A stretch of DNA of 64,000 nucleotides from Candidatus Omnitrophota bacterium (GCA_016201795.1 JACQCF010000010.1:79095-143094), one strand, 5' to 3'; shown: positions 3,447-62,800, counted from the stretch's first letter. The notes: a model not told the origin generated them from the sequence alone. Translations and numbers: made by a program.

Positions 3447-3457
3447 AACGGGGCTTT

Positions 3458-4315: not shown

Positions 4316-4335
4316 TTATGTCATTGCGAAATGGT

Positions 4336-4429: not shown

Positions 4430-4443
4430 TTTCGGAGAATAAT

Positions 4444-5349: not shown

Positions 5350-5354
5350 ACTCT
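5324..5354. repeat. 31-bp direct repeat, copy 1 (3' end of tadC-like coding sequence)
   Basis: ATCCTTTGCGTAATTTAGGCCGGTAAACTCT. Identical except for one base to 6646-6676. Confidence 0.85.
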
Positions 5355-5379
5355 TTTTGCGAAACCACAAAAACAATTC

Positions 5380-5407
5380 TTGACAATTTAAAGTAGTACT
5401 TTAAAAT
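5380..5407 (+). promoter_or_regulatory. sigma70-like promoter TTGACA-16-TAAAAT for AAA+ ATPase gene; predicted leaderless or near-leaderless transcript
   Basis: TTGACA at 5380-5385, TAAAAT at 5402-5407. The ATG lies at 5415, only 7 nt downstream of the -10, with no Shine-Dalgarno. Confidence 0.5.
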
Positions 5408-5414
5408 AGCAAAT

Positions 5415-6635: not shown

Positions 6636-6645
6636 ACCCGCCGCC

Positions 6646-6676
6646 ATCCTTTGCGTAATTTGGGCCGGTAAACTCT
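6646..6676. repeat. 31-bp direct repeat, copy 2 (downstream of AAA+ ATPase gene)
   Basis: ATCCTTTGCGTAATTTGGGCCGGTAAACTCT. With copy 1 it brackets the promoter plus ATPase gene (about 1.3 kb). Confidence 0.85.
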
Positions 6677-6682
6677 AACTAA

Positions 6683-6708
6683 CCCCGAACCTCGCAGGTT
6701 CGGAAAAT
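6683..6708. repeat. 26-bp stem-loop element, copy 1 (CCCCGAACCTCGCAGGTTCGGAAAAT)
   Basis: 7-bp stem CCGAACC/GGTTCGG with a 5-nt loop. Lies immediately after the stop codon (6710-6712) of the minus-strand regulator gene, between convergent genes. Confidence 0.7.
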
Positions 6709-6709
6709 T

Positions 6710-44800: not shown

Positions 44801-47800
44801 AGAATATCTCCAAAGTGTTGCCTGGCGTGACCAGCAAGTTACCGGCGGTGCTTAATCCAAATGTACAGATGATTCAGGAAAGTCTTGGGGTAGGCCGCAT
44901 CCAGATAGATTCATTGACCAATGTGCCGGCAGCTCTTAAAGACACTGTAGATATCAGCCGTGGTGTTGCAATGTTAACCCAAGAACAGCTCAACAGCATT
45001 GCGCATGATGCCGATGGGGTATATAGCCTTCAGGACATCCTTTCTGATAAGCTCAAACGCGACGTGGTTTATGACAAAAACCATCATGAAATCGGCACGA
45101 TGATTTTAGGTATTGAGGGCAAGATTCTATTGGATCGTTTGATGAAAACAGAATGGCAGGTCCTTGAAGAAAATGATGAAGGCAAGGTCACGAAAGCTTA
45201 TTTGCGTACGTTTGAGCAAATTCTCGCCTTACGCGATGATCTTTTAAATAATAAGCATATCAAGAGCGTCAGCCGTTTGATGAGACCAGGCAAGCATGAA
45301 CTCAAACAAGTCATTTGGCTGGTGCCGATGACTATTGATATCCCTCGATTAGACGACAGTGGTGTCAGCGAGGAATATGAGATCATGCCGCAGGCCGACA
45401 TTTTTGCGAATCTCTTTAGACGTATTTTTGAACCCATTGAAAAATTCGCTATGCTACGAGGCTATGTACCTACAGCCCGGGATTTGGGCGTTAAGCTTGG
45501 TGATTATCCGATAGCCAGATTGTATGAGACCAAAGCGCTCGTCAACGGCCAAAAACAAAGCTTGGTGCGGAAGGATGACTTAAGACCTGATGGCACGGTG
45601 TACCGTAGCGGCAAGTTTACCTACGTCGAGGATAACAAGGTTAAAGATGAAAGAACTCATGCTAAAACAATTAAGCTTATCAGTAGCACGATTATGTTTG
45701 AAAACGGCATCAAGGCCATCAATAGTTATAGTGATGATACATTAACCATTGTTGACAAGAAATTCCTTTCAGGCGTACCTGACATGCCATCTCAGAGCCG
45801 TTGGGTTACTGCGCGTGATGAACGTATTCTGGAGAAAAAGCTGGATGAGAAAGAAACGCGTACGCAAAAAGGCTTAAGGGAACATATATGCAACCTTATT
45901 CAACCGGTACAGCTGGCAGACACTAATATAGTAAATCAGGTTAATGACGCCATCCGTGATGCCCAATCTGATGCGTTTTTATTTAACATAGCGACGGCAT
46001 ACCAGACACAAGTATTTGACCACCGTAATCAACAGTCATTGTCTCAAAGGGTGGAGTACTATGATGCCATGGGCCATCTGGTTGTCCAAACAGAGGGTGA
46101 CTGGACGGTTATTAACAGTTACCAAAAAGATCAGATCAAGTCCACGTACGAGTTCTTTAAAAATGAATTTGTTTGGGAGAAGAAATTAAACACATCCGGC
46201 AATAAAAGTTTTTCCAGTGTCGTTGATGCATTATTGAGCAAGGCAAACGATGAAGCGATTAAAGAGTTTAACGAAAAATCAGGATACGTCTACAATAAAA
46301 AATCCGGTGTTGTCGCTCAAGAAGACACGAGCGGCGCACGGGTCAAGGATACGACTCAACTGAGATTATATGATGTTACTAATGCACTGGGTGGCCAGTA
46401 TAGAGAATATCAAAGAATAGGCGATACCTTAGGAAGGGCCTTTGTCAGAGAAGTTGATATGCTTAAACCAGGTACGAATGCTGCAGAGGGTACTCATACA
46501 ACATTCTTTAGTTTCAATAATAATGTTGTCACACGTTCCTACACAGTGAATAAGGCTGGTGAACGATTGGAAAATGAAGCCCTTCGCACCACAAAAGAGG
46601 GTAGCGCGGAAAATGATGCCAAGAACTATCTATATAACTATACAAACTTCAGAGGTGTTGAAGGCATCAGAGCTAAATTTTTATCTGACCCGACAGGCGT
46701 GCCGGTCTGGGATCAAATAGCTAACAAGAGAACATACAATAAATTTGGGAAGAGTATTTATAGATTGAGAAACGAACGCATTGAATATGACATTATGCCG
46801 GATGGTTCAAGAAAAGCAGAATTCCTTCCGATATTCGCCCACACAGATTATGCCTTCTTTAAGATTAACTTAGGTCAATACTTTGGGGAGTTTGCTTCTA
46901 AACGTCAGCCAATGAGTGTCAAGACCTTTGATGCCGCGGCTAATCATGTTGACAGGATAGAGTTCCTTGTCAAAGGACGGGACGGTGGGGAGAAATTCAG
47001 AGTATTCTTGAATGATCATTTAGGTGTCATTAATGAAAAAGAAATACAGGCGATTTACAATAAAGACACAACAGGCCCGACTGTATTAACGGCCGCTAAG
47101 AATTGGCAACCCGTTATCCTTAACCTTTCTAACTTTAAAAATAATCTGTTGAATGCCAATAGAGAACTTGACCTGAAACAACTGGCTCAAATTGGCGTAT
47201 CTTATGGTAACGACGAAGGCAATAAAGAAGGCGCTGAAATCTATATAACAGAATTGCAGTTTGTTAAGAAAGATGGTTCTAAGATCCCGGTCGGTTTAAT
47301 TGCCGGTGTCATTAACGCGACAGGCAATGTCCCAACCTTTAAGTTTAGAAAGCCGATGGGAGCCAATCCAAATTCTGATACCGACTTCTTTACCAATGAA
47401 GTTTACTTCACCGAATCAATGCCTTGGTATATCCGCTCAGGGATAACAGTTACGGTTAATAAGAAGGATCCATTAGATGACCGAGAAATTGGTACGCCTC
47501 AACCTGGCAATGTCGTTGGCATCAGCGATACCGAATTATCACCGGATAACCTGTTGGTTTCCCGCGACTTCTCCATCTTACCCGGTTCAACGGGATTCAA
47601 GGTCGTAAGGCCGCAAGGACAGGTTTATTTCAATGGATACTTTGAATCACAAGACAAATATAACGGCGGCGAACGTTTCAATGACTTAAACGTCTGGCTC
47701 GATTTCGTTATCGCTGATGATAAGGGCATGCCGCGATTCTCGATCAATAGCAAAACAGACGAGCTGCAATCTGTTTATCGTTATAAGGTCACGACCGATC

Positions 47801-50800
47801 ACGATCTTCTGATCGCCAAATATGACATTAAGCAACAGGCCATGGTTGTCAAGAAATACGGCAAGAGCCAAGATGGTATCGTCCGCTGGGAAATGAAAGG
47901 ATTCTTTGACCATACTCTTCCGATGAGCAGTCGCAAGCTTGTGGACAGTTTTGGTACCTATGTCTACGACGCAGTGGGTAAGAATTATGATGATGATCAC
48001 ATCCTCTTCCCATGGACTTGGGAACGGTCCAATGAAAGGCACGGCCGATTCTACAGAATGTTATTCGGGTCAGCCGATGCGCCAAAGGAAGATGTTCAAA
48101 AAATGATCACGGATGATGATCCAGATTTCGTTAAATGGGCTGCGGCTATCGAGCAAGCCAAAACGCAAATTGACTCCATGCCAAAATTAAGAATATCATC
48201 GGTTCAGAATGGCTCAGCCCCGGATGAATATACATACGGACCGGACAGGGCTATTTATTCGTATAGTAATACATTTTTCTGGTGGGCATTAGGTGCCTTT
48301 GTAGCATTCCTTATTTCGACATTAGTATTAGTTTATAAACAATTGCGTCTTCGTAGAAACAAGATACAAGGATTAAATGCTGAAAGTAAAAATCCAGCTC
48401 TTCCAGCAGTGCGCTATACAGAAGCTCAAGTGAAGGCAGCGGTCCGCAGTATATACGAAGATGTTCAGGCGCTTGATTTAGGGCACCTTACTGATCCTGA
48501 CTTTGTCGATACAATTGTTAATCAAATGAAAGCCCACAAGCAGATCAAGACACCGGCCGGTTCTCCTGATGAGTTGGAAGCTATTGATGTTGATAAAGCG
48601 GTAATTTTGGTCAAAGATCCCAAGGCAGCATCAGGCGTCCGTGAAGTTAAATTTAAGCTCTTTGTCTGGCAAGTCATATTTGGGAAAAATCAGCTTAAGG
48701 AACTTGCTTCCAATTCAGCCTTTATGGCTCGATTGGTGAAAGACGCGGAAGATATCTTTGAAAATCGGGTGGATGTGGTCAAATCGAATGATGAGGAACC
48801 GCAAAAGGTGAAACGCAACAAAGAAGTTATGCTGGTGGTCAAGGCCTATAATTCTCTTTGGAGATTAGTCCTCGGTCACCAATTCTCATTAATCCACATG
48901 AACTTATTAAAACGACGGTTTTCCATCAAGGTCGAAGACGTCAACTTCTTATATGAACACTTTGATGAGCTTGTTCTCGGTAAAGATCCACAAAACGAGT
49001 ATATGGATCCTGAAGAAGCCAAGCGCCTTAATCCAAACAGAATTCTTGAAACGGTTGATTATCTTAAATCCAACCAACAAGCATTAGAGCGGTTTACTCA
49101 CAATATTTTAAAAGCTATTCAGAAAAAGAGAAATCAACTGTACCCCGGGCCTGTCAAGAAGACGATTTTAATGGCTCTTATTCCTCTTAAGTTAATTTGG
49201 GATTTAGGGAAAGGCATTTGGAATAAAAATTACAAAAACGCCACCGGCGCATCATTCTGGCTGACGATCATCAGCGGATTAGGCGTTTATGCCGCTCTGA
49301 CAGCCAAGATTTGGATTGCCGAAGTATTACCGCATTTTGTCTATATTGCGCGCGTTTTAGCTTCCGGCGCCGGATTCGACGCTACCTTCGCCTTTTCACC
49401 ATTGGTCGTTGGACTAAAAATACTTATCTTGCTGTCGGCCGGATTGGTGATCATGTGGGTTGTCGGTTCGTTCGTTGCCTGGGTGTCAGGCCGTATCGAT
49501 AGGGCCTTCCCGATCAAAACAATGAACGACATCGTGACGGAAATGCCCGGCGCATTAGATAAGCTGTTAAAAGATAATCTAGAACGACAAAAAGATGTTA
49601 TTGACGATTGGAACGCGATGATTGAAGATGCCCGGCGCGAGTATAGAATTTCTTCAGAGTTAGCTGTAGGATTAAGCTTCCCAGGTAAAGATAGTAGAGT
49701 AACATTTGAACATATCTTTGGAAACATTACGGTTAAAGATTTACAAGCAATCGAAAAGGCCCTCAGGCGCGAAATCAAGAGCTTTGCCAATAATCTCTTG
49801 CGTAAAACCAAAATGCCTGAAATCGCACCAATCTATGAACATTTAAAGAGCTTGTGGGTACGCTTGGTCTGGAGAGGCGACTCATTCTTCACCTCTTGGT
49901 CAGAATTAATTACGAAGAAAAATTGGAACGGATTATCGCTTATCGGGCAGGTCAGAAAAGGGTATAACATCGCATGGCAAATTTTTGTCAACGAGATGGC
50001 AATAAATCCAAAGTTCAATGCTTTAGTTAAAAAAGAGGTGAAGTGCTTAGCCAATGAAGACATTGAAGATGTTATGGAAAGAATCAAAAAGATCTCGTAT
50101 GACGATTATCAATATATCGTCTCAGAAATTGAACTATTCGCTAATGAAAGATTGCAAACTGTTTGGAAGACCATGCGCAATACTCTTCGTATCCGACGGG
50201 CTTATCGCAGACAGTTAGTCAAAGCCATCCAAGAAAAGCAAGAGTATGTTGAACATAAATTAGGAAAGATGTTTGCTCGCATGACACCTGATGTATTAGG
50301 GGCTTATGTTCAATATAAGGATGCGCTAGAGACCGAGTTAAAGCCGACCGCCCAATCAGCTGAGCAGTTCCGGTCAGGCTTGACAGCGGAGCAATTGGCC
50401 TTTGAGCGAGAAAACGCGGATATCATTAAGGCCTTGGATAGCTTAGTGAATGAGAAGTTCCAGCCGATCCTAGCCGTTGCCGCGAGCAAGAGCAAGGTGC
50501 AAGGCTCTGAAGATAGTCAAAATGCTCTGGAATATGCCAAACGCTTAAAGTGGGATGCAGTATTTGTTCAAGAGAATTCCTTGGCCGAAGAAGGCGTGGG
50601 AAGCTATAAAGGGTTCTTCTTGGGGCAATTGCTTTATCATGCCAAGGGAGAAGTGGTCCTCTTTATAGACGCTGATACGGAAATCACTTACTCCAATGCC
50701 AGGAAGATGCTTAATGCTCTCACAGAGTTTAATGATGAGAAGCTGGGTATCTTAAACTTCAAACAATATATTTACAACAGAGATTATAACTTGGCCACCT

Positions 50801-53800
50801 GGCTGGGTGGTACGGCTATGCGTGCCCTTTGGAGCCCGACCTTTAGAACACGTAATTTGGTTGGTAATCCGACGTTCCTCGGGCACGGTGCTATGATCCG
50901 AACTGATTATCTCAGAGAATTCTTCGGGGCCCAGCCGGATTATGTTGCTGAGGATATCATGATCGCTTTACTCTTTAGAAAATATGGAGTTGATGTCCGT
51001 TATGCGGATTACCTGGAAATGGGTGAAGGTATTGAGCAGTCTCTCGCGGACTATATGTCCCCAACCACCAAGAAATGGGCGCAGGGTACAAAAGAAGTTA
51101 CCAAAGGGCAAGGATTCAAACAATTAATATGGACCAAAGAAGTTCCGTTGAACGAACGAATCGACATTTGGTTACATGGTGTCGGGTTCTACACGATCCT
51201 CCACATGTTAGTTCCTGTAACTATTGTCCTCTATTTTGTTAATAATATGATTGGAATTAATCCATTTGCAATTATGGCGTATTTCATCGCTTTTGTCGGT
51301 ATGGCGGCCTCCATGGGGATCAATGCATATCTTTTGGTCGATAGGCTGGAAGGCGGCGAAGACGACGGCGGCATTAAAAACGCGTTCAAGAGTTTCGGCC
51401 TGTTCTTAGCTAAGGGCGCCCTCTTCTTCTGGACGCTTTTGATCGGAAACCAGATCATGGGCGTCATCATCGGTTGGATGGAGAGAGCCGAGTATATCAC
51501 CAGTAAGAAAGGCCCTGGTTTAACCCAAGAGAACCCGCGCCAGATGTACAACAGAACAAGGGGCGCAACGATTATGGCAGTTGGATTAGGATTGTTCATC
51601 GCCTTGTATACGTTAGCGGCAAACTTCATTATATCGCTTCCGATAGTTGCTTATGACCAGGAGTTCCCGTATCAGGTTATTGCTTCCATTCTCTATATTA
51701 TCGTTCAGATCAGCTGGGTCGCTTCGATCTCCTTATTTAATCCGGGACGAACGTTGCTTGGAAAAGCCAAAGATATCCTCTATCATATCGGGTATGCCTT
51801 AGAAGATATTGTCAACTTCTTGATTCGTGATCCGTTTATGAGACGTGTAGTGTACAGATATGTTTATCCGCTTTATCGGCTTATCGCAAATGGCTTTGAC
51901 AGCGACAGAACGGTTGTTGATATAGCCAACCGTCTATTAGGTCAAAAGAATGTTGAGTTGGATGAAGCAAATCTGAAGGCAATCTTCGGAGAAGATAAGG
52001 TCAATAGAGTCGCCGGTGTGTTTAAAGCAGGTCAGTTTGGCCAACAAGGAAGCCGTGCCATGACACGCAGCGGCAGGGAGAGGGAAAGAGAATTGGTATC
52101 TAAGATTATCTATGAAGATATGATGCGCATGGGACGGGATTTAGTTAAGGTCTTCTACGAAAAGAATAAAGTTGCACCAAATGACGATGAAATTGAAGAA
52201 TTTGCACAACGCTGGATTTATGAAGGCGGTAAATTTAACAGGGCGGTACGTAAACTCAATGATTATTTATCTATCCGGGTACCGAAACGGGAATTCTCTA
52301 CAACATTCGACCGTTTAGTTGATCACTTGTCATCAACGCAATCATTCTTGTTGGCTATGCAGGCCTACCGCCGCGTTATCGGCAGCGAAGAGAAGTTTAA
52401 GGACGATTACACCAAATTTTTATCTAACGGAAATAAAGCCTATGATCGGACACAAATTTCACAGAACAGCACAACAAAGCTGAGGGTATTAGCCGGTACC
52501 CTGGGTGTTGGGTTTGCAGTTATAGGCTTTGCGGTCGGATTAACGGTTATCGCTTATGCCCTCTTAGGCGTGTCTTTAGTTATACTCATCGGCAGTGCGT
52601 ATCTTCATATCATGGGCATCAGCACGATGGGTGAATTTATGCAAATGGTTAAAGGTCAAGCTGTACTCCACGGCTCCATTACAATAGACGCTGATGTTGA
52701 AAAAACTTTAGAGAATATCTGGGCTGATCCTTTCAAATCACTCAACCAGTTGGCTAATGAATTAACCATTGAATACCTAATGAATGAAGAACCGCGCGAT
52801 GCGGGTGAGTTAAGTTATGACCAATTCAAGCGACGTATCATTCAGGTTGTTACCGGGAACGAGTTAGACTTTGGCAACCCTGAAATCGCCAAGGCGGCAA
52901 AGACGGAAGCCAAAGAATTTATCATCCGCGTTTTAAGAGAATCGGATCAGGTCAAGCTTCCGGATGATGTCGGCGCCGAGGTCTTTATTAAGGAATTTTA
53001 TAATCGATACATTTTATCCCAAGCCGAAGTCAGCCTTGTTTATTCAACAGATAACAACGGTGAAGGCGTTCTGGATATGAAACTCATTGAAGAGATGCTG
53101 GTGATCAATCCTAACTTAAAAGTTTACCTTGTACCTAAAAGCCGGCCGGTCAGAAATGACTTTTCTTATATGGACGCCAATCGGGTTATGGCTATGACGT
53201 TAGAATTGGCCCGAAGACGAGGCGATGTTAATAAATATGACATCTTCAAGAAATTAAGAAGATTTAAAGGAAATTCAGAAGAAGGACGATTCCATATCTT
53301 TGAGCATGGCCCGATGGTTCAAGGTCTTGATCCGACCGGCATCAGTAAAGAGTTCTCATTCTTATTAAGAGAAGGACGAACGATTGAAGAAAGTCAACGT
53401 CGTGGTAATAAACTTGTCGATAAACGAGAAGTGGTTATGTTCAACAAAGGTCAGGCCAATGCCGAAATTAAGGGATGGCAGGCACCAGCCTATCTCGGGT
53501 TCATGGTCAAGGGCCGTGTTGCCGAAAAAGCTCACGGTGTCAGTAGGGACCGTCAACCGCAGGCTTCGATATTTGTCGGATTACGAGCCGGTATTCCGCA
53601 TTATATAGATTGGGCGATAGCGCACCGGGCGGATTTTGATCCTTATGCAGAGAAGTTCTTAAGCTCAGCCAGGCAGACAACCAAAGATTACATCAATGCG
53701 ATTATGGGTGCGAAGTTCAGAAAGATGTTGGGAGATAAGTTTGGTTGGGATGTTGACTTTGGTAAAAATAAATATAAACCATTAACAAATGAAATATTGT

Positions 53801-56800
53801 TTGCCCATCTTTTTAAAGGACGCTGGACAGATTTGCAGAAAAGAAAAGGCGATAATGAGTTTGTCGATTTCTTTATTAGCAAAATAGAAGAGATTTATTC
53901 CGATACGACGCTTGATGATGCGCAAAGAAGAGCCGCGGTAGAAAAGTTATTTAAAGAGTTAAAAGCTGAAGTGAAAAAGGCTCTCGAGGGTATGAAAAAA
54001 GGTATTGAAGAGAAAGCTCCCGGCATCGTTGCGAAGGCCTTTGATGAAATTTTAGCGGGTATCGATGCCGAATTTAATGAAGCTATAGAGGAGGCTAAAA
54101 AAGCCCACATGTTTGAGGTGGCACGTAGAGATGATGCTATTAAGCAGGCCATTTTGGCTGCCAGAGCAGAGCTTGAGAAAGAGGTGGAGCAGTTGGTTGC
54201 AGGGGTTAATGCGAAGCAGAACAAAATCGATGCAGTCATTGGAGATTTCTCTACTGTCAGTAGCCGCCTTGGCGCTGTCCAGCAACGGGTTAAGCTGGTG
54301 ATCGATGATATACAAAAACGGATTCAACAATATTATCGTCAAGGGGCTGAGATGCAAGGCGACAATTATAAAGGTTTTGGCAATTATGTTCCGCCGACGG
54401 AGGAACACCATAAGCGCGACTTATATGCCACTTATGAACAGTTACGCGAGGACAGCGAAGCCATTGTCGCTCAATTGAGACAGCTGAGAGAATTTTATGA
54501 GTCCAGAGGATACCAAGGGGATGAATCGGTAAAGTTCCTGGATAAAACGATTACCGCGATATTGAAGTTATTCTATAACTCAAGAAACGCCCTTAAAGAC
54601 TTAGCCGATGACAAAGCGTTACTGGCCGGATCAAGCGGCAGCGCCAGGCGCGATGCCATGGAGATGGAAGACAAGTTAAAAGTCCTTATGCATGCCTTAG
54701 TGGATAATGCCTTTAAACAAGTTCTCGAACACAAAGATGACAATATCTTCGGCGCCTTTAGATACCGGGCTGGTCAAATCTTGGCAGCAATTTATGAACA
54801 AGAACCGGGCGTTAATCAAAGCAGTGCCTTAAAGAGACGATACCAAAATATCCTCAATCAATTAACCTTCTGGTTTAGAAATATTGAACAAAGATATATC
54901 CACAATCACGCTCTTGGACTTATCAGCGCTGCTGATCAGACAGAACTTAAAGCTGCGCTCAATGAAGAAATAACAGCGCTCGAAGAATTATTGCTCGGTG
55001 TCAGGTCTGCCAAACATCAGGAAGTCAGCAGTCCTACTGCCGATGCCGGAGAAAACAAAGCGGTCATGCTGGCCAGTCGAATTGGAGCCATCAGAAGCAA
55101 GTTGCGTGATGCTCTGTGGGCCACGCTTACGGTCAAGGTTGAGCAACCGTTGGAAAAAGCCCTTATTGACGGGGAGATGACGATGGCTCAAAAGAAAAAA
55201 GTTTCCTTTGTTGAGCATATTGTTCCGCCGGTTACACCGATTCCGCAGGTCGACAGAGAGGACAAGACAGCAACAATCTTTAGTGAAAAACGAAATGAGC
55301 GATTTGTTGTTAGCTGGGGCTGGGCCAAACTGACAGGAGTCATCCTGTTTATCAGCGGCTTTATTATGGCATTTAATTCAGTGATCATTCGCGTGGTTGT
55401 CGGTGGTATAGGGCAGTTTGTCTTAAGAGAAAAAGGCATTGCCAACGACATTCTTGGGCAGATCACGCTGCCGGGTATCCGAGAATCAGCAGTCATGGGA
55501 ATGATCGCTATGGTTGCCGGTATTATGCTGATGGTTGTGGCCGGACGATTACGGTTCTATGCGGAGTTGGCGGTGCATGCTCCGGAGCACACCAATGACG
55601 ACAATCGTAAATTGCTGTTTAAGGGATCTATTGATACCAGCCGTGATCCGTCGGATAAAGTTTTGGTCAGAAGTAGCCGGGGCATTGTCCATCAAAGGGG
55701 TGGACGTATTTATGTCAATAAAACCGTATTATTAAAGAATTTCGGATTGCCGGCCCGTGTTTGGATGTTGGTATCAGCGATGACACAAACAATACATTAT
55801 AGAATTCCGCTATTAGTTTATATTCCGATTTTTGGTTCAATTCTAAGAGACACGGTTACAGCCCTGGTCGGAATTGCGCCGGTGGTCCTTGCCGCGATTG
55901 CCGCCTATGTGTTGGGCATGAATTGGTTAGAGATCCTTGGAGTAGCAGGTATAGGGGCTGTCGGCATGGCTTCCGTTGCAGGTATCTATTCTGCTTATGT
56001 TGGGATGACACATAAAGAAATAAATCTCCGTGAGTTTGACTTAGCATTTAAGAAGGCCTCCGGAGCAGACCAAGGTGCAGAGTGGAAGCTCACATCGAAA
56101 GAAACGGAAGAAGAGAAGATAAAGAGGATTAAGAGAAAAGAAGACAAGATTAATGATTTTGTTCAAGAATTCGTTGAAAATTATCTTAAGACCGAACGAG
56201 AGATTAAGATACTGCTGCTTGGCCTCAACGAAGATAGTGTTAAGCCGTTAAGAGAGTTTATTAATAATTACATGAAGAAAATTGGTAAAAATAATATTCA
56301 AATTGAGGTTTTAATAGACGCTGATGCGGAAAACTTAAAGGCATCCGCAAACGGATATAAGGCGGATGTTATTCTCGCCGTGGGTAACAAATTTGCCGAG
56401 AAAACTGGTTGGACAAAACCGACGTATGTCGCCTTTAACATTAACAAGGAAAATGCCGTTAAGCACGGGGTCGGCCTTAAGAAAGATAAGACCACCGGCG
56501 CAATCACCAGCTCAATTAACGGAAATGAAATATATCCGGCCTTTATCGCCCTGAAGCCGGGCGTAGAGCATATTGCCTATAATAATGAAACTGGCGAAAA
56601 TATACAAATTCAGTATACCTCCGAATATATAGAAGCGTTACTCAGCACGCAATATTATGCCTTAAGAAAATATGTTTATAAGGGTGAAGAAGAGAGATTG
56701 CTGAAAGATATCAAGAAAGATATGGATACGAGTACGAAAGGCTTAGGGTTACCTTTTGCTTATATTGTCCTGGGTGCGGTTCCGATTTTTGAAAAAGAAT

Positions 56801-59800
56801 CAGTCATCGGTGAATATCTGCCCAACTTCCAGCTGCAGAGTGTTGCCGGAAATCAGGAATTAGAAGAGTATATTAGTAAGATTGACGGCGCCGGTGCCGG
56901 CGGCGGCGGCGGGTTCACCTTTGTCACCTTAGTGGGACATAAGGAAGCGGCCAAAGGCAAGGGTATTGTTGCCGCCTATTCACCGACTTCCGATAACGGC
57001 GGGTCTACCGGGGAATTACGTATCGTGTTTATGCCGTTTAGAGGAACGACCGTGGCTATGGGTGATGGTATTCAAGTTACGCAGATGAACTTAGACATGA
57101 CGAAACATAAAATTTTGGAGATGCGTGTCGCTTCGGTAGGAACCAATGTTTTTGACGAAAAGTTCGGCGGAAGAGAAACAATGACCGCCACTGTGTTAAC
57201 CAAGATTATTGAGGAGATTAACAACCCGACAACGGATGACGGTACCAATCTTCTGGATACCCCGCTGCCGGTATACTTCTTGGCTAATCAATTAGCGCTC
57301 TCTAAGGTCTTTGATAAAAAGTTTCTTTTGGCCAAGACAGAAGAAGGCCGCCGCAGATATCCCAACCTTAATTTAAGAGGCGCGTCCATCCGAAACCTCG
57401 TTTGGATGGCCATGGCTGAACGGTACAATATCTATCCTGATGTTAGAGACCCTGTTGAAGCCGGGAAGAAAAAGGTCGAAAAGATGGAAGATCCGGAATA
57501 TGAGCAGTATAAGAAAGATTTGGCAGAGCGATTTAAGGCCTTCCAATGGATGCTTGAGAAGGCGACCACCACTCAATTTAAGGATCATGAAGGAAAGTAT
57601 ACCGGACAGGTTCACCAGGCCAATCCAACGATCAGCGGTTCCGAGATTGCCGTAACCTTTAAAGCACCGGTGACCGAAGATGAGATCAAGGTCATCGAAG
57701 CAAAGCTGCATGACTTCCGTAAATTCCTTTCAGAGGATCGACGTACGATTTATGGGCAGAGATTTATTGATAAACTTGAGCCGCCATATACAGCTTATCA
57801 AAGAGAACGTGATGTCGAAACAAATAATAGAGTTGTTGATTTTGAGGCTATGGGATCCTTCGTTCCTATTCATGAATCAGAGAGGGCCGCTGATGAAACC
57901 GAACGAACTATGAATCCTAAGAAATACAGAGGCCAAGAGATAGAATACAGACCGATGGCTCAACCAGGATGGTATCTGAAGATCAACACCGAGATCTTTG
58001 TCAATCAGGAATATATCGATACGCTTAAGGGAGCTAAGGTTAATACATTCGGTGCCGGTAGTTTGTTCAGCAGTCAGCTGCCTCAGTTAATTACCCGAGG
58101 AGCCGTTGATGCCTTGCTTCTGACAAAAGCGATCAATATCTTTGTCTTTAACAACGTTGCCATCGAAGAAACAATGAACATGAAGGCCATTGATATCATT
58201 AAATTTGTCGAAAAGCTGGCCTCACGGCATGTCTCTGATGACGTAGCCAAGATCATCGCCCAAAGACGCGGCTTGCAGGAGGGTGAATATTCCAGAGGAC
58301 AAGACGGCGAAAATAAAGGCGTATATTTCACGAAAGACAGCGATTACCTCATCCGCTTCGGCGATCTCTTTGACGGATATATTATTAACAAAGATGAGAC
58401 GCTGAAGAAAATTGAAGCGGAAATGAACAAGTTTAAAGATGAGAAAGTTGATGTGGCTCTGACAGTTTCAGAAGCGAAAAGAGCAGAGCTAATCGCTCAA
58501 ATACAACGGTATATTGTGATACAGCGAACTAAACTCGGTGAAGTTAATGCAAAGCTTGCGGCTTTACCAACCACAGATTTGACAGAGGAGCAACAGCAGC
58601 AAAAATCGCTGCTTACAGGGTATAAGGAATTCTATGAAGCTGACTTAAAGAAGGCTGAAAAATACATTGGGCAAATTACAGCGGAAGTTGTCAATGAAAG
58701 TCAATATAAACATGGGATATTAACGGTGTATGACGGCAGTGATGTTTCCTATGACGCCGAATTCAATAAGCTTGATATTGGTAAACGATATTTTGATGAA
58801 CAGGGCAATGACATTACCTGGATGTACAACTATGACAATCCGACCTATGGTTTCTACGGCGGTGGCCCCATGTGGATTGACGAAGAAGGAAACCGCTATA
58901 TAGAAAAAGGTTCGGATAACTTCTTCCGTATCATCGCTGACGCAGAACATTTTGAATACGTTGTCCCGAGCGAGAAGATCAGAAAAGAGTTGATCCATTA
59001 CAATAAGTATGTCCACTTCCTGTATACTCATCCGCTATTTGCTCGAAAAATCGGCGTTGATTTGACTGACCTTAAAGGCGACCTCGGACGGTTATCCTGG
59101 TATATCCATGACGGCCGTCTGGTGGGTGCACGGACCGAGGCCGGGCGATTTAGAGATGCCTTTGTCTTGAGTGATAAGGATAGGGAATATTTGGCCAAAC
59201 GTAATATCAAACATCCATATGAAGAAAATGTCCTCTCCTGGGTGCAAAAGCCTCTCAAAGCCGCCGGCCCGATTGTGGAGTTTGAAGATTTTGTGGCTTT
59301 GGATTCAGGACGCGTTAGCGCAATTATGACTGAGATCAAAAAATTACATGAAAGCATAAGAAAGCAATTCATCTTGTATTCCGGTCCGTCAGCGGTTGGA
59401 AAGAGCCCGCTTTGGAGACAGATGCAAAGGATGTATCCAGACACCTTCAGCCGAATCATCCTGTACCATTCAAGAGCTATGCGGCCGGGAGAAGGTGAAG
59501 GGGTTGATTATTACTTCCGGACAACTGAAGAGATTGAGCGTCTCGCTAAAGAGCAAGAAGATTTTGTGACCATGGATGTTTATGGGCAGATTCAGGGCAT
59601 TAACTTAAAAGACGTGAATGCGGCAGTTCAAAGCGGAAAGATAGCGATCGCTGAAGTCTCGGTTGATTGGGCGGATCATTTAAGAAAACTTTATCCGGAA
59701 ATCATCTATAGCATATTTGTTGCGCCGCTTAGCGATGTAGAAATAAAAGCCCGTGCCCAAGCCAGCGGAAAATCAGCGGATGAAGTTATCTACGAAGAGA

Positions 59801-62800
59801 TGCTTAATCGGCAGAATGAACGACACGCCGAGATGCCGACGGCAGAGGCCAAAAGAAAAGATCGGGCAAGAGCAGCGGTTGAAGAGATGGCCCGCAGAGG
59901 GGAATATGATGCCGTGGTTGTTAACGCTGACCTCAGAGATTTAAGCAGCTATGCTTCCCGCTGGGAAGGCTTGGAAGGACAGGCCTTGGTTGCAGAATTT
60001 ATGGCCTTGGTGAAGAAAGCCACCGCCTCCTTCCGTACCCGTCCCGGCAAAGAAGAACCGACCGATGAAGCCGTTCGTGAAACGATCGCCCAAATCGGTG
60101 GATTAGAACAAATGGCGGTTGTTGAGGATAAAGCCATTGAAAATGCGGTGAAAACATTAGAAAGACTTGGGCAACATGATGCGGCAAGATTATTAGAAAG
60201 AGCAGCCGAAATCGAAGAAGCCCATCAGGAAGCGCTCAGGTTTGAACATTTGGCCGTGGCTAACAGAGCCTTGAGGAACGCGGAACGTTTGGCCTTACAG
60301 GCTCGGGATGAAGCAGGGGCTCAACAGGCCTTAAAAGAATACGCAACGGCAATCACATTTTATCAGAAAGTCGATTCCGATGAGGCCAGGCAGAACCTGA
60401 AAGTCGCTCAAGCCAAAGAAAAGAGATTACGTAAGTCTCTCAAAGACTTCAAAGAATATTTTGATGTTATATCGGAGTCTGGTGAAAAGACGACAGAGAC
60501 TGTTTCCCGTTTTGAGGCGCATCAAAGAGGGATACGGCACGGCGGCATCAGTTTGATGGTTTTTGACCATGCTGGCCGTTTCCTGGGACAAATAAGGGCA
60601 GCGGACAAAGATGTCTTCCCATCGAAGCTTTCCAATGCCGCTGCCGGACACATCAAGGCCGGGCATGGACCCTATGAAACTTTATTGGCCGAAGGTCCGG
60701 AGGAAATCAGCATCGGCAGTAAGTCATTGGCATTGAATGAATCAAACGTCCACCAAATCGGCAAAGACTATGCCTATGATGGTTATCTGGAAATGTTTGA
60801 GTTTACTTATTTAAATGCCGCAGAAAAACAGGCGCTGGTTCAAGTGATGCAGGCGCGTTTGGGCAATCAGCAAGGCACAAAGACCCAACACATTCTGTAT
60901 GACATTAATGATGAATTATCGGTGATTTACCTGTTCACCTTCAATGCCACCCAACACCAGGCCTTAAATGAATTGGCGCAGGCCATCAGCCAGCAGACCG
61001 GGACTGGCCACGGCAATTATACCTATAATCGGGAGAAGAAATCTTTGTATGTTTACGCGCTCAACAGTCAGGAAGAAGATTTAGTGAATGAGATTATGTC
61101 GCAGATGAGAGGTGGTACACAGTTGCAGGAAACGGGTGAGGGCAAGGGCGAGGTGGCGGGATTGCGGTGGGTGGACTTTGATCATTTGGTTGAAGAATTC
61201 CATGCCCGTCCGCAGCAGTACACCGACGTGTTTGTTCCGTTGTTGACGGATGCACAAATCGTTGCACAGATCAAACAGGCGCAGCAAGCCGGAAACCGCA
61301 GGGTTTATGTGTTGGCCGATGTGGATAAAACATTATTACCTAAAGGTCAAACCTTACATGAACCTCAACAGGCCGCCATGCGTGATACGTTGGTGGGTGT
61401 TGTGGACGTGGTCACAAAAGCAGGTATCATTTCCGGAAATTCCCGTGCCGCTCAAAACAAACGCATCGTTGCTGGCATTACCGCAAAGGCCCGTCCCGAT
61501 ATTGACATGTATGTTAACGGTGGTGGCACATTGATGCAGTTGGCCGGCAACGACCAGTGGCAGAGCCGCAATATAGGCGGTGATTTGAAACAAGAACATT
61601 TGAATGCCGTGGTTGAAATTTTAACGGATCTGGCGGTGAATAAGAAGTTCCTGATGGATGAAGAAGAATTGGCAGCTTGGCGAGCGTATTTCAGTACCCG
61701 TCCGTCCGAGGGACCATTTAGCAACTCATTACCGGAAGGCTTCGGCCGTCGCCGCAATAAGGACTTTCATTTCGCGTTTGATTTCAGCTGGATCAACGGG
61801 AACAGCAATTTCAAGGTAGGTATTTTTGATGCCGAAGTTCTCGAAAACTCTCCGACGGACAGGAATTTACCGGTCACGGCTCCGTATGTCGAGACCCGTG
61901 ATGGAGTTTCATTCACAATTAAACCGTTATTAGGCTGGCAGGAATTGTTGCCTGACCGGGGCGAAGCGGCAGATATCCGTATTCGCTTGATTGAACATAT
62001 TGAACGCGAACTTGGCCGCCGTGGATTGGCCGGCGTTTATGAATTACGTCCGGGTGGCTCTTTGAGTATTGACGTGGTGCAGAAGGGCATTGATAAAGGT
62101 GTTGCGCTGTTGGATTTTGTCCGCCGTCATAACGTACGCCGGGTGAAAGTGTTCTCCGTCAGCGCCAATCCCCAGCGGCATGCTGCTTCCGTGCAGGGGA
62201 AGGTCACCTGGATTGGAGTTGGAGAACAAGCCACGCAGGCATTTTTACGCAAAGCCCTGGATGAAGGGACCCTGGCCAAGGAAGAGGAAGGGACATTGTG
62301 GTATATCGCCGACGAATTGAGCGAAAACGGTAATGACGTCCCGGCCGTGCTCGCCGCCGAAGCAGCCGGTCTGCTGGTTGTTCCGCAACCGGCGATTACC
62401 TCTAATCGCACGGCGGCCGAACGCAGAATCGCAGAGGGTGGGGTCAAGATTCGTCATTATGCTCCGCATACTTTGGAAAATTACGCGCAGCAACTGCAAT
62501 CAGGGTTCGAGGCCATTGGCGTGAATGCCCGGTTTGAAGTGGCGCAAAAAGGTGAAACGGCTCAAGCCTTCGCGGCACGGATCCAAGGACAAGTCGCGGA
62601 TGTGTCGATTGTGCAATTCCATGGCGCGGAAAAAGAAAAGCCGGTTGTTGCTCTGGATTATCCCGGCGAAGTTGTTGTGTTGATCCACCGTCCGGAAGAA
62701 GTTCTTTTAAGATACGGCTCGGCCAAGGTCCAGGAAATGTTAGCCAAGGCTAAGGCCATCATTCTCTTAGGCCGGGCGATGCGCAAAGAATATCAGCAAT

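What the first reader, a model, noticed from the sequence alone, without database searches (positions are those of the whole stretch)
59380..62400. Guanylate-kinase-like and HAD-IIB phosphatase-like modules near the window end of the giant ORF
GPSAVGKS followed by S-RAMR-PGEGEGVDYYF matches the guanylate kinase fold signature. About 1.5 kb later, DVDKTLL, SIDV..KG.DKG and ADELSENGND match HAD-IIB motifs I, III and IV, as in sucrose-phosphate or mannosyl-phosphoglycerate phosphatases. The region after it (62.6-63.4 kb) may be a glycosyltransferase-like partner. This is small-molecule nucleotide/sugar-phosphate metabolism embedded in a giant membrane protein, which is unexpected.
Basis: partly seen in the sequence, partly recalled or inferred. 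Interest (0 to 1): 0.55.

Follow-up and report, generated by a model that had tools for sequence, protein, structure and literature searches.

The report
Enzyme-module string in giant bacterial protein
The flagged stretch really encodes a run of enzyme-like domains (kinase-like, Nudix-like, a rearranged HAD phosphatase-like domain and a glycosyltransferase-fold domain) inside a membrane protein of at least 18,385 residues. Proteins of this kind are already described in Omnitrophota bacteria, so it is a new example of a known oddity with some unusual details.

Summary
All the quoted motifs lie in one stop-free frame (8845-63999, 18,385 codons, open at the window end).

- **Kinase-like module:** it hits Pfam Guanylate_kin (1e-16). 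It keeps the P-loop and the phosphate-clamp residues. It has lost the guanine-contact residues and scores below the guanylate-kinase equivalog cutoff.
- **HAD-like module:** it has no direct HMM hit. Its relatives hit Hydrolase_3, and its AlphaFold model matches HAD-IIB structures (phosphomannomutases, trehalose-6-P phosphatase; 9e-11).
- **Motif IV:** it is missing from its usual place and sits after two later structural elements. A 64%-identical metagenomic relative has the same order with a canonical GDEF...GND signature, so the rearrangement is conserved.
- **Downstream region:** it folds as a GT-B glycosyltransferase (BshA, PimA; 2e-9). It belongs to a Pfam-less family found in Omnitrophota, Verrucomicrobiales and Planctomycetia assemblies.
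- **Missed module:** a Nudix-like module lies between the kinase-like and HAD-like modules.

The whole protein has an N-terminal C39 peptidase domain, many predicted membrane helices, and sparse sugar and nucleotide enzyme domains. This matches the published Omnitrophota giant "multi-enzyme" proteins, so enzymes embedded in such a protein are not unexpected.

Verdict: a new member of a known kind. Interest is moderate, mainly for the permuted HAD, the orphan GT-B family and a recurring junction element.

The parts
8851..63999 (+). Giant open reading frame, at least 18,385 codons. The stop-free frame begins at 8845, the first ATG is at 8851, and the frame is still open at the window end. All modules below are parts of it.
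   Evidence: Six-frame stop scan. Chance of a stop-free frame of this length is about 1e-464. In-frame Pfam hits occur along its length.
9568..9825 (+). Peptidase C39-like domain near the N-terminus (aa 242-327), followed by predicted membrane helices at aa 405-589.
   Evidence: Pfam PF03412, E=7e-11. Hydropathy scan.
50656..51291 (+). GT2 glycosyltransferase domain (Glyco_trans_2_3) that runs into a cluster of predicted membrane helices (aa 14113-14296).
   Evidence: Pfam PF13632, E=5e-14. Hydropathy scan.
52681..53196 (+). ARMT1-like damage-control (sugar-phosphate) phosphatase domain.
   Evidence: Pfam PF01937, E=8e-13. NCBIfam NF041594, E=3e-8, below its cutoff.
58000..58284 (+). CofD/YvcK-like segment. 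YvcK is a UDP-sugar-binding protein. The match is partial.
   Evidence: Pfam PF01933, E=1e-6, 28.5 bits against a gathering score of 30. TIGR01826 (YvcK-related), E=4e-9, below its cutoff.
59365..60009 (+). Guanylate-kinase-fold P-loop module (aa 16841-17055). P-loop GPSAVGKS is at 59383-59406. The phosphate clamp is R16877, R16880, E16883 and Y16889. A 22-residue Arg/Lys-rich insertion in the LID region is at 59803-59871.
   Evidence: Pfam PF00625, E=1.1e-16. PDB guanylate kinases, 6e-17. Residue mapping. Closest relatives are P0151 (59% identity) and P0107 (58%).
60037..60210 (+). First, partial copy of a repeated junction element (TRPGKEEPT...LLERAAE). A helical linker follows, to about nt 60426.
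   Evidence: Self-BLAST: aa 17056-17122 against aa 18260-18326, 43% identity, E=5e-11. This is the only internal repeat found in the protein.
60427..61284 (+). Nudix-fold module of the YfcD/IDI-like type (aa 17195-17480), with an insertion of about 100 residues. The Nudix box is at 60646-60714 and is partly degenerate: the first Glu is His, the Arg is Ala, and the E-x2-EE glutamates are kept.
   Evidence: NCBIfam IPP isomerase 1.3e-9 and YfcD 1.6e-6, both below cutoff. Pfam NUDIX 19.8 bits against 21.1. PDB 2fkb (YfcD) 4.6e-5. Relatives up to 47% identity. Alignment.
61294..62394 (+). HAD-IIB-fold module (aa 17484-17850).
- Motif I DVDKT, 61318-61332 (D17492, D17494).
- Motif II IISGNS, 61426-61443.
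- YVNGGGT, 61510-61530.
- Large C2-type cap, about 61531-62064.
- Motif III lysine in IDKG, 62065-62100 (K17751).
- Strand VKVFSVSANP, 62143-62172.
- WIGVGEQATQAFL helix, 62209-62247.
- Transposed motif IV, LWYIADELSENGNDVP, 62296-62343.
   Evidence: Nine relatives at E 1e-15 to 1e-9, several hitting Pfam Hydrolase_3. BLASTP to P0070, 7e-23, with a 28-residue gap where P0070 carries motif IV. AlphaFold model pLDDT 76.8. Foldseek top hits are HAD-IIB, 9e-11. Relative in L006 is 64% identical over 365 residues with the same order.
62446..63630 (+). GT-B-fold (GT4-like) module (aa 17868-18262) of a Pfam-less family. Invariant family motifs are HRPEE (62686-62700), IPHGFF (62827-62844), FDFNVQIYHE (63256-63285) and KYEYGRASH (63322-63351).
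   Evidence: More than 60 representative relatives, including stand-alone proteins of about 450 aa with no Pfam hit. 16 invariant columns, all kept in the window. AlphaFold pLDDT 85.4. Foldseek: BshA, PimA, MshA, GlgM, TreT, 2e-9 to 1e-7.
63637..63999 (+). Second, fuller copy of the junction element (RTRPDQAEPT ... APP ... HPE ... VIHEAVEA), cut off by the window end.
   Evidence: 40-47% identical to about 10 representative proteins over this segment, with conserved RxRPGK, APP, HPE and HEAxEA. In P0107 and P0062 it directly precedes a guanylate-kinase-like module.

Best explanation
**What the region is.** Nucleotides 59.3-64.0 kb encode the last visible part of a membrane protein of at least 18,385 residues. 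The protein is of the Omnitrophota-type 'multi-enzyme' giant class. After the last predicted membrane helix (aa 15715) the chain is a string of separate globular modules joined by helical linkers:
1. a CofD/YvcK-like segment;
2. a guanylate-kinase-fold P-loop module;
3. a Nudix-fold module;
4. a HAD-IIB-fold phosphatase or phosphomutase module with a large cap;
5. a GT-B-fold glycosyltransferase-like module;
6. a junction element, after which the window ends.

**What is shown.** The folds and family relationships of the modules are shown. So is the retention of the P-loop and phosphate clamp in the kinase-like module. HAD motifs I to III are in register, and motif IV is transposed but conserved. 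The GT-B module keeps every invariant residue of its family.

**What is inferred.** The modules are active and sit on the cytoplasmic face, because they need ATP and nucleotide-sugars. They act on nucleotide-sugars and sugar-phosphates next to the membrane-embedded GT2 module of the same chain.
- The HAD-IIB and GT-B pair would work like known synthase/phosphatase pairs: the glycosyltransferase transfers a sugar to a phosphorylated acceptor and the HAD removes the phosphate. Alternatively the HAD acts like a phosphomannomutase and supplies sugar-1-phosphate.
- The kinase-like and Nudix-like modules would handle the nucleotide by-products or precursors.
- The kinase-like module probably does not use GMP, because its base-recognition residues are replaced in a pattern conserved across its subfamily.
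For: **Single giant frame with membrane helices.** About 21 predicted helices, the last at aa 15697-15715.

**Class features.** N-terminal C39 domain, GT2, ARMT1-like, CofD/YvcK-like, matching published descriptions.

**Kinase-like module.** Pfam 1e-16. P-loop, R38, R41, E44, Y50, R131 and the R146 equivalent are kept.

**HAD module.**
- Fold match to HAD-IIB at 9e-11, and relatives hit Hydrolase_3.
- D13, D15, T17, S54 and the cap residues are invariant or nearly so.
- The L006 relative is 64% identical, has the same strand order, and carries LWYFGDEFYKNGNDVP. That equals the family motif IV consensus YFGDEF...GNDxP.

**GT-B module.** Fold match at 2e-9, and 16 invariant family positions are all present in the window.

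**Sugar and nucleotide theme in relatives.**
- The GT-B module sits next to hexokinase plus aldose epimerase (L002), an inositol-monophosphatase-family phosphatase (L003), phosphofructokinase (L005) and a mannose-6-P isomerase-like cupin (P0001).
- The closest kinase-like relative, P0107, is followed by a nucleoside phosphorylase domain and a GT4 domain.
- L006 combines four kinase-like, one HAD and two NUDIX modules.
- L010 has CofD next to the HAD.

**Taxonomy.** The best genomic matches of the GT-B module are Candidatus Omnitrophota assemblies (34% and 33% identity), then Verrucomicrobiales and Planctomycetia.
Against: - No activity, substrate or membrane topology was tested. The side of the membrane is inferred only.
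- The window's HAD and GT-B modules have no significant direct HMM or PDB-sequence hit. The GT-B profile does not align significantly with a true GT4 domain (hhalign probability 10%).
- The canonical EX7E motif of GT4 is absent.
- Guanine-contact residues and one LID arginine of the kinase-like module are lost. Related kinase-like copies in L006 and P0107 have lost the P-loop serine, R41 or the whole P-loop.
- The Nudix box lacks its first Glu and its Arg.
- Whether the transposed motif IV strand reaches the active site could not be checked, because no model coordinates were available. The model is weak over the acidic motif IV residues (pLDDT about 63 for residues 341-350 and 48 for 351-360).
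- A profile of the canonical motif IV segment finds this site as its best match in the protein, but only at E about 0.04.
- Module order is not conserved between relatives, which argues against a strict assembly line.
- The organism is not identified directly.
Confidence: 0.55

Rival explanations
1. The modules are catalytically dead. They are former enzymes kept as rigid spacers or ligand-binding and protein-binding units of a giant envelope or adhesion protein, much as MAGUK guanylate-kinase domains became phosphopeptide binders.
For: - The kinase-like module has lost its guanine-site residues and one LID arginine.
- Paralogous kinase-like copies in relatives lack the P-loop or R41.
- The Nudix box is partly degenerate in the window and its close relatives, whereas the stand-alone YfcD-like relatives in the alignment keep it.
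- HAD motif IV is missing from its canonical position.
- There is no EX7E motif in the GT-B module.
Against: - The window's kinase-like copy keeps a perfect GxxxxGKS P-loop and the phosphate clamp.
- The HAD nucleophile, acid/base Asp, motif II Ser, motif III Lys and the acidic motif IV residues are all kept between two sequences that are only 64% identical.
- All 16 invariant positions of the GT-B family, which includes stand-alone proteins, are kept.
- The substitutions at the kinase NMP site are themselves conserved across the subfamily. This suggests a changed pocket, not decay.
Confidence: 0.25
2. The giant ORF is a polyprotein. The chain is cut at the recurring junction elements, perhaps by its own N-terminal C39 peptidase, and releases free enzymes of ordinary size.
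For: - A conserved junction element of about 140 residues recurs between modules in the window and in about 10 unrelated fragments.
- Both window copies carry a Gly-Gly, the kind of site C39 peptidases cut (the specificity is from general knowledge).
- Stand-alone homologues exist for the GT-B module (about 450 aa) and the Nudix module (about 180 aa), and there is a 350-aa kinase-like protein.
- Cleavage by C39 or S8 domains was proposed in bioRxiv 10.1101/2023.11.21.568195.
Against: - The Gly-Gly is not conserved in most relatives' junction elements; for example, P0062 has Arg-Glu there.
- The flanking residues do not fit the double-glycine leader spacing (my reading).
- Only two junction copies are seen in 18,385 residues, so most modules are not flanked by one.
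- There is no experimental evidence.
Confidence: 0.12
3. These are ordinary housekeeping enzymes fused into the chain: a true guanylate kinase and a sucrose-phosphate or mannosyl-phosphoglycerate phosphatase.
For: Pfam Guanylate_kin hit and PDB guanylate-kinase hits. HAD-IIB fold.
Against: - TIGR03263 scores 88 bits against a cutoff of 160, and the other guanylate-kinase equivalogs are also far below cutoff.
- The guanine-binding residues S34, E69, S80 and D100 are all replaced.
- There is no S6PP or Hydrolase_3 hit.
- The top structural matches are phosphomannomutase-type, trehalose-6-P phosphatase-type and IMP-nucleotidase-type proteins.
- Only 3 proteins reach E<=1e-10 in the 5.8-billion-protein collection for the kinase-like module, and none reach E<=1e-3 for the HAD plus GT-B region.
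Confidence: 0.05
4. The arrangement is an artefact: an assembly chimera, or several genes joined by sequencing errors that removed stop codons.
For: The exact sequence of this region was not found in the protein or genome collections searched.
Against: - 55 kb without a stop in one frame cannot arise from a few errors.
- The rearranged HAD module is reproduced in an independent 91.8-kb metagenomic contig, inside another frame that is open over the whole 9,952-nt locus fetched.
- The kinase-like module is reproduced at 58-59% identity in two other datasets.
- An upstream gene of the window is found exactly in an independent read-set assembly.
- Giant ORFs of this type are documented.
Confidence: 0.02

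Closest known systems
Omnitrophota giant proteins: 'Archaeovorins' (West-Roberts et al., bioRxiv 10.1101/2023.11.21.568195) and the 'multi-enzyme metabolic cluster' class (bioRxiv 10.64898/2026.06.07.730766)
   Same: - A single ORF of tens of kilobases.
- A C39 peptidase domain near the N-terminus.
- Many membrane helices.
- Long stretches with no annotation, and little internal repetition.
- Scattered glycosyltransferase, NUDIX, HAD, kinase and sugar-phosphate enzyme domains.
- TadB/TadC-type genes nearby in the genome.
   Different: - No SecA-like domain was detected here, only a weak Helicase_C hit.
- Guanylate-kinase-fold modules and Hydrolase_3-type HADs are not mentioned in the main text of either paper. 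The one supplementary file held as text for the 2026 preprint has no such term, and none is held for the 2023 paper.
- The organism of the window is inferred, not shown.
HAD-IIB (C2-cap) enzymes: eukaryotic-type phosphomannomutases and atypical alpha-phosphoglucomutase (4bnd, 2fue), trehalose-6-phosphate phosphatase (1u02, 5dxl), Plasmodium IMP-nucleotidase (6rme), Cof-type phosphatases (4dwo)
   Same: A Rossmann-like core with DxDxT, a Ser in motif II and a Lys in motif III. The cap is inserted between the third core strand and motif III. Foldseek probability 1.00, target-normalised TM-score up to 0.65.
   Different: - Sequence identity is 9-17%.
- The cap is about 180 residues, roughly twice the usual size.
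- The motif IV strand is moved behind the next strand-helix unit.
- There is no direct Hydrolase_3, S6PP or PMM HMM hit.
Two-step glycoside-phosphate synthase/phosphatase systems: sucrose-phosphate synthase with its SPP-like domain, and trehalose-6-P synthase/phosphatase fusions (from general knowledge)
   Same: A GT-B glycosyltransferase-fold domain fused to a HAD-IIB domain on one chain. In a relative (L003) the same GT-B module is followed by a different phosphatase family, IMPase.
   Different: The order is HAD then GT, the reverse of SPS and TPS-TPP fusions. The GT-B module is not GT4 or GT20 by sequence. No substrate is known. This is an analogy, not a membership claim.
Guanylate kinase (Gmk/Guk1) and MAGUK guanylate-kinase-like domains
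   Same: Same fold and Pfam family. The P-loop is as in the enzymes, and the R38/R41/Y50 phosphate clamp is as in both.
   Different: The guanine-contact residues are replaced, unlike the enzymes. The P-loop is intact, unlike MAGUK domains (general knowledge). There is a 22-residue insertion in the LID region.
GT4-type retaining glycosyltransferases: BshA (5d00), PimA (4n9w), MshA (3c4q), GlgM (6tvp), TreT (2x6q)
   Same: Two-Rossmann-domain GT-B fold. Query-normalised TM-score 0.44-0.56.
   Different: No Glycos_transf_1 HMM hit. No EX7E motif. The family has its own invariant motifs (HRPEE, DFNVQxYxE, PKVEYSGTLH). The profile comparison with a GT4 domain is not significant.

Membership tests
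Guanylate kinase (enzyme, EC 2.7.4.8) | Match to Pfam PF00625 above the gathering score | tested here: met
   61.6 bits against 25.2, E=1.1e-16.
Guanylate kinase (enzyme, EC 2.7.4.8) | Score above the NCBIfam equivalog cutoff (TIGR03263, NF011325, NF011324) | tested here: not met
   88.1 against 160.45; 86.1 against 263; 62.3 against 318.
Guanylate kinase (enzyme, EC 2.7.4.8) | P-loop GxxxxGK[ST] | tested here: met
   GPSAVGKS, aa 16847-16854.
Guanylate kinase (enzyme, EC 2.7.4.8) | GMP phosphate-binding residues (yeast R38, R41, E44, Y50) | tested here: met
   R16877, R16880, E16883, Y16889. The HMMER alignments to PDB guanylate kinases agree.
Guanylate kinase (enzyme, EC 2.7.4.8) | Guanine-recognition residues (yeast S34, E69, S80, D100) and Y78 | tested here: not met
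   They are L, V, I, S and Q. The last four (E69, Y78, S80, D100) show the same or a closely similar substitution (S80 to I or L) in subfamily members P0107 and P0151; the S34 position could not be compared there.
Guanylate kinase (enzyme, EC 2.7.4.8) | LID arginines (yeast R131, R135, R146) | tested here: inconclusive
   R131 is kept. R135 is Ser. R146 aligns to an Arg (in DRAR) only in the multi-sequence alignment, across a 22-residue insertion.
HAD superfamily, subfamily IIB | Motif I DxDx[TV] at the end of the first core strand | tested here: met
   D17492-V-D17494-K-T17496. Nearly invariant in the family alignment.
HAD superfamily, subfamily IIB | Motif II Ser/Thr and motif III Lys | tested here: met
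   IISGNS, with S17533 invariant. K17751 in IDKG aligns with the Lys of P0070, which lies in its Hydrolase_3 match to profile positions 165-232.
HAD superfamily, subfamily IIB | Motif IV acidic residues (GDxxxD-type) on the strand that follows the motif III helix | tested here: inconclusive
   The canonical segment is absent: there is a 28-residue gap against P0070. An ADEL..GND segment lies after the next strand and helix. It is conserved as FGDEF..GND in the 64%-identical L006 relative. Its profile score is weak (E about 0.04) and its position in three dimensions could not be inspected.
HAD superfamily, subfamily IIB | C2-type cap, and overall fold matching solved IIB structures | tested here: met
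   The top 50 Foldseek hits are all HAD-IIB-type proteins, E down to 9e-11. The model has pLDDT 76.8.
HAD superfamily, subfamily IIB | Direct hit to Pfam Hydrolase_3 (PF08282), S6PP (PF05116) or PMM (PF03332) | tested here: not met
   Only PMM at E=0.21. Relatives P0066, P0070, P0081, P0083, P0091 and L012 do hit Hydrolase_3.
GT4 / Glycos_transf_1 glycosyltransferases | GT-B two-domain fold | tested here: met
   Foldseek hits to BshA, PimA, MshA, GlgM and TreT, 2e-9 to 1e-7. The model has pLDDT 85.4.
GT4 / Glycos_transf_1 glycosyltransferases | Sequence membership (PF00534 or PF13692 hit) and the EX7E motif | tested here: not met
   No Pfam hit for the window or for eight stand-alone relatives. 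The family has K-x-E-x5-H instead. hhalign against a GT4 domain gives probability 10%.
Nudix hydrolases | Nudix box GX5EX7REUXEEXGU, and Pfam PF00293 above the gathering score | tested here: inconclusive
   19.8 bits against 21.1. In the box, the first Glu is His and the Arg is Ala, while the three later Glu residues are kept. YfcD (2fkb) 4.6e-5. The catalytic Cys of IPP isomerase is Ala.
Omnitrophota giant multi-enzyme / Archaeovorin-type proteins | Single ORF above 10,000 aa with an N-terminal C39 peptidase domain and multiple membrane helices | tested here: met
   At least 18,385 aa. C39 at aa 242-327. About 21 hydropathy peaks (a crude method).
Omnitrophota giant multi-enzyme / Archaeovorin-type proteins | Many different enzyme domains (glycosyltransferase, NUDIX, HAD, phosphatase, kinase) with no dominating repeat | tested here: met
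   Self-comparison finds only one short repeat.
Omnitrophota giant multi-enzyme / Archaeovorin-type proteins | SecA-like DEAD/helicase domains | tested here: not met
   Only Helicase_C at E=0.002, below the gathering score. No SecA family was found in Pfam, or in NCBIfam on that segment.
Omnitrophota giant multi-enzyme / Archaeovorin-type proteins | Encoded in an Omnitrophota genome | tested here: inconclusive
   No marker gene or tRNA is in the window. The best genomic relatives of the GT-B module are Omnitrophota assemblies at 33-34% identity, followed by Verrucomicrobiales and Planctomycetia. TadB/C-type genes lie upstream.

The most novel reading that the evidence does not exclude
The permuted HAD-IIB module and the orphan GT-B family (HRPEE / PKVEYSGTLH motifs) form a previously undescribed synthase/phosphatase or mutase/transferase pair. 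It would make a phosphorylated glycoside or a surface glycan at the membrane. The guanylate-kinase-fold subfamily with a rebuilt base pocket would phosphorylate a non-guanine substrate. The recurring RxRPGK...HEAxEA junction element would be a dedicated docking or cleavage unit that lets such modules be shuffled between giant proteins.
Probability: 0.15. Interest if true: 0.7.

Novelty: new member of a known kind. Interest (0 to 1): 0.4.

Why it matters
Giant Omnitrophota-type proteins are among the longest known, and their function is largely unknown. Most of their length has no annotation.

This case shows that a Pfam-dark stretch resolves into ordinary enzyme folds once remote relatives and structure prediction are used. 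It also shows that the modules are drawn from a shared, shuffled pool with a common theme of sugar-phosphate and nucleotide chemistry.

It yields four concrete objects that can be cloned and tested on their own:
- a HAD-IIB with a conserved strand permutation;
- a widespread glycosyltransferase-fold family without a Pfam model;
- a guanylate-kinase-fold subfamily with an altered substrate pocket;
- a recurring junction element.

It does not change the general picture already published for these proteins.

Tried and rejected
**Direct searches that gave nothing significant**
- Pfam and NCBIfam on the HAD-like and GT-like segments: nothing significant.
- phmmer of both segments against PDB sequences: nothing.
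- A family profile of the HAD against PDB sequences: only non-significant phosphomannomutase hits, E=0.076.

**Collection searches**
- Word-indexed search of 5.8 billion proteins with the HAD plus GT region: no hit.
- The same search with the kinase-like module: only 3 hits at E<=1e-10.
- Single-sequence scans of genome contigs and metagenome contigs: no relatives. Alignment-based scans were needed.

**Ideas that did not hold up**
- True guanylate kinase: rejected on the equivalog cutoffs and the guanine-site residues.
- IPP isomerase for the Nudix-like module: rejected, because the catalytic Cys is Ala.
- GT4 membership of the GT-B module: rejected by sequence.
- Gly-Gly in the junction element as a conserved C39 cleavage site: not supported, since it is absent in most relatives.
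- A profile of the canonical motif IV segment scores the transposed site best in the whole protein, but only weakly (E about 0.04). That alone would not have established motif IV; the L006 relative did.

**Checks with no result**
- Three long antisense ORFs inside the giant gene have no family hits.
- There are no tRNAs in the window.
- The sample and contig accessions were not found in the literature library.

**Not possible with these tools**
- Model coordinates could not be inspected.

Full report
**1. Observation.**
No complete ORF covers 59-64 kb in the mechanical list, because the gene runs off the window. A six-frame scan shows one stop-free frame from 8845 to 63999. It has 18,385 codons and its first ATG is at 8851. 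From base composition, the chance of this is about 1e-464.

**2. Kinase-like module (aa 16841-17055, nt 59365-60009).**
- Pfam Guanylate_kin matches at E=1.1e-16, 61.6 bits against a gathering score of 25.2. Solved guanylate kinases match at E down to 6e-17.
- The NCBIfam guanylate-kinase equivalogs are far below their cutoffs, for example TIGR03263 at 88 against 160.
The result is consistent with the HMMER alignments to PDB entries.
  - Kept: the P-loop (GPSAVGKS) and the GMP-phosphate clamp (R38, R41, E44, Y50 in yeast numbering).
  - Replaced: the guanine contacts, S34L, E69V, Y78Q, S80I and D100S.
- The two close relatives found, P0107 (58% identity) and P0151 (59%), carry the same or closely similar substitutions at E69, Y78, S80 and D100, and share a 22-residue Arg/Lys-rich insertion in the LID. 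In that alignment the R146 equivalent is retained and R135 is lost.
- The module is therefore a guanylate-kinase-fold P-loop protein with a rebuilt base pocket, not a guanylate kinase.
- Related copies in other giant ORFs range from intact to lacking the P-loop.

**3.
- Scores: NCBIfam IPP isomerase and YfcD models match at 1e-9 and 2e-6, below cutoff. Pfam NUDIX scores 19.8 bits against 21.1. The YfcD structure 2fkb matches at 4.6e-5.
- Relatives: up to 47% identical, sharing an insertion of about 100 residues.
- Residues: the Nudix box keeps three glutamates but has lost its first Glu and its Arg. The catalytic Cys of IPP isomerase is Ala.

**4. HAD-like module (aa 17484-17850, nt 61294-62394).**
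- There is no direct HMM or PDB-sequence hit.
- An exhaustive HMMER search of 1.84 billion representatives found nine relatives for this segment at E 1e-15 to 1e-9. Several of them, and a metagenomic relative, hit Pfam Hydrolase_3.
- In the family alignment, motif I (DxDxT), IISGNS, YVNGG and a cap motif (VExRDG...K) are invariant or nearly so.
- An AlphaFold model built on that alignment has pLDDT 76.8 and pTM 0.74. Its best PDB matches are all HAD-IIB: atypical alpha-phosphoglucomutase 4bnd (9e-11), phosphomannomutases, Plasmodium IMP-nucleotidase, trehalose-6-P phosphatases and Cof-type phosphatases.

*An unexpected detail: motif IV is transposed.*
- BLASTP against the closest full-length relative, P0070, is collinear at 7e-23. 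However, the window lacks the 28 residues that carry motif IV in P0070 (VVYFGNEF...GNDVP). P0070's Hydrolase_3 match covers exactly that part.
- In the window, the motif III helix runs straight into the next strand (VKVFSVSANP) and the WIGxGxxATxxFL helix. Only then comes LWYIADELSENGNDVP.
- A profile of the canonical segment finds this as its best site in the whole protein, but weakly, at E about 0.04.
- The decisive evidence came from an alignment-based metagenome scan. Locus L006, from a 91.8-kb contig, is a single open frame over the 9,952 nt fetched. It encodes a HAD module 64% identical over 365 residues, with the same order and with LWYFGDEFYKNGNDVP. That is the family's motif IV consensus.
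- The permutation is therefore real and conserved.
- Whether the moved strand re-enters the sheet beside motif I could not be checked, because no coordinates were available. AlphaFold predicts it as a strand, with pLDDT falling from about 81 (residues 331-340) to about 63 (residues 341-350).

**5. GT-like module (aa 17868-18262, nt 62446-63630).**
- More than 60 representative relatives exist. They include stand-alone proteins of about 450 aa with no Pfam hit.
- The alignment has 16 invariant positions, including HRPEE, DFNVQxYxE and PKVEYSGTLH, and all are kept in the window.
- The AlphaFold model (pLDDT 85.4, pTM 0.82) matches GT-B retaining glycosyltransferases: BshA 1.9e-9, then PimA, MshA, GlgM and TreT.
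- Sequence-level membership in GT4 is not supported. There is no Pfam hit and no EX7E motif, and hhalign gives probability 10%.
- In genomes, the family is found in two Candidatus Omnitrophota assemblies (34% and 33% identity), one Verrucomicrobiales assembly and one Planctomycetia assembly, mostly inside long ORFs.

**6. Linkers.**
- The only internal repeat in the protein is a 65-residue element after the kinase-like module and after the GT-B module, at 43% identity, E=5e-11.
- The second copy continues into a conserved element (RxRPGK ... APP ... HPE ... HEAxEA). About ten other fragments carry it at 40-47% identity.
- In those fragments it precedes P-loop kinase-type modules: guanylate-kinase-like in P0107 and P0062, CoaE in P0102, and NDK-like in P0095.
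- The window ends inside it.

**7. Context.**
- Along the giant frame lie a C39 peptidase domain at aa 242-327, about 21 hydropathy peaks (the last at aa 15697-15715), a GT2 domain running into a helix cluster, an ARMT1-like phosphatase and a CofD/YvcK-like segment.
- The flagged modules all lie after the last predicted helix.
- Upstream genes are two TadB/TadC-type T2SSF genes, an AAA_14/DUF4143 ATPase and an HTH-phosphoribosyltransferase gene. One T2SSF protein is found exactly in a Logan assembly of SRR12113409.
- These features match published accounts of Omnitrophota giant ORFs:
  - C39 near the N-terminus, many membrane helices, and glycosyltransferase, NUDIX, HAD_2 and sugar-phosphate enzymes (bioRxiv 10.1101/2023.11.21.568195);
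  - a 'multi-enzyme metabolic cluster' class with sugar-metabolism and kinase/phosphotransferase clusters (bioRxiv 10.64898/2026.06.07.730766);
  - giant ORFs and Tad genes common in the phylum (PMC10066038).
- A SecA-like domain was not found, and the organism is inferred only.

**8. Mechanism.**
Shown: the folds, the family relationships and the residue conservation described above. What follows is inferred.
- The modules are cytoplasmic, because they need ATP and nucleotide-sugars.
- They act on sugar-phosphates and nucleotide-sugars beside the membrane GT2 module.
- Relatives support the theme:
  - the GT-B module is fused to hexokinase and aldose epimerase, an IMPase-family phosphatase, phosphofructokinase or a mannose-6-P isomerase-like cupin;
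  - the closest kinase-like relative is followed by a nucleoside phosphorylase and a GT4 domain;
  - L006 combines four kinase-like, one HAD and two NUDIX modules;
  - L010 has CofD beside the HAD.
- A GT-B domain next to a phosphatase, HAD here and IMPase in L003, recalls synthase/phosphatase pairs such as sucrose-phosphate or trehalose-phosphate systems (general knowledge). A phosphomannomutase-like role for the HAD is equally possible, given its top structural matches.
- Module order differs between relatives, so a strict assembly line is unlikely.

Rivals:
- pseudo-enzyme scaffolds (some degenerate motifs, but strong conservation of catalytic residues);
- a polyprotein cut at the junction elements (a recurring element and stand-alone homologues, but no conserved cleavage site);
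- housekeeping enzymes (rejected);
- an artefact (rejected).

**9. Verdict.**
The claim of surprise is out of date.
- The finding is a new member of a known kind.
- The permuted HAD-IIB, the orphan GT-B family, the altered kinase pocket and the junction element are modestly new details worth testing.

Noticed in passing
window 60427-61284 (+): A Nudix-fold, YfcD/IDI-like module lies between the two flagged modules. It has an insertion of about 100 residues, shared with relatives up to 47% identical. Its Nudix box has lost its first Glu and its Arg, while the stand-alone YfcD-like relatives in the alignment keep them.
   Followed up: partly
window 60037-60210 and 63637-63999 (+): The only internal repeat of the 18,385-residue protein is a junction element (RxRPGK ... 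LLER ... APP ... HPE ... HEAxEA). About ten other large-protein fragments carry it at 40-47% identity. In them it precedes P-loop kinase-type modules (guanylate-kinase-like, CoaE, NDK-like). It has no Pfam family. Both window copies contain Gly-Gly, but most relatives do not.
   Followed up: partly
L006 1-9951 (contig Ga0182027_10000245, 91.8 kb): The whole fetched locus is one open frame. It holds four tandem guanylate-kinase-fold modules (one without a P-loop, one with R41 lost), the 64%-identical permuted HAD, a weak 2H-phosphodiesterase hit and two NUDIX domains. These are the same module types as in the window, in a different order.
   Followed up: partly
relatives P0073, P0074, P0081, P0091, P0098: In these fragments the HAD parts appear in the order motif III, motif IV, strand, WIG helix, then a linker, then motif I, motif II, cap. 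No second half follows. They are either circularly permuted HAD domains or tandem units with a broken second copy. This was not resolved.
   Followed up: partly
window 50656-53196 and 58000-58284 (+): A GT2 domain (Glyco_trans_2_3) runs into a cluster of predicted membrane helices, as in processive polysaccharide synthases. An ARMT1-like sugar-phosphate phosphatase follows it, and a partial CofD/YvcK-like (UDP-sugar-binding type) segment lies further on.
   Followed up: partly
window 32644-32958 (+): A weak Helicase_C match (E=0.002, below the gathering score) is the only possible trace of the SecA-like helicase domains reported in Omnitrophota giant proteins. No SecA model matched.
   Followed up: partly
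window 36042-37274 (-), 31858-32604 (-), 26461-27081 (-): Long antisense ORFs of 410, 248 and 206 aa lie inside the giant gene. None has a significant Pfam hit. They are probably by-products of the sense-strand composition, but this was not examined further.
   Followed up: partly
window 263-7681: Upstream genes are a 904-aa ORF with no Pfam hit, two TadB/TadC-type T2SSF genes (3458-5349), an AAA_14/DUF4143 ATPase (5415-6635) and, on the minus strand, an HTH plus phosphoribosyltransferase-like gene (6710-7681). The second T2SSF protein is found exactly in a Logan assembly of SRR12113409.
   Followed up: partly
window 1-64000: GC skew is positive across almost the whole giant gene, and the cumulative skew rises steadily from about 2 kb to 64 kb. 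This fits one long gene on one strand. There are no tRNA genes in the window.
   Followed up: no
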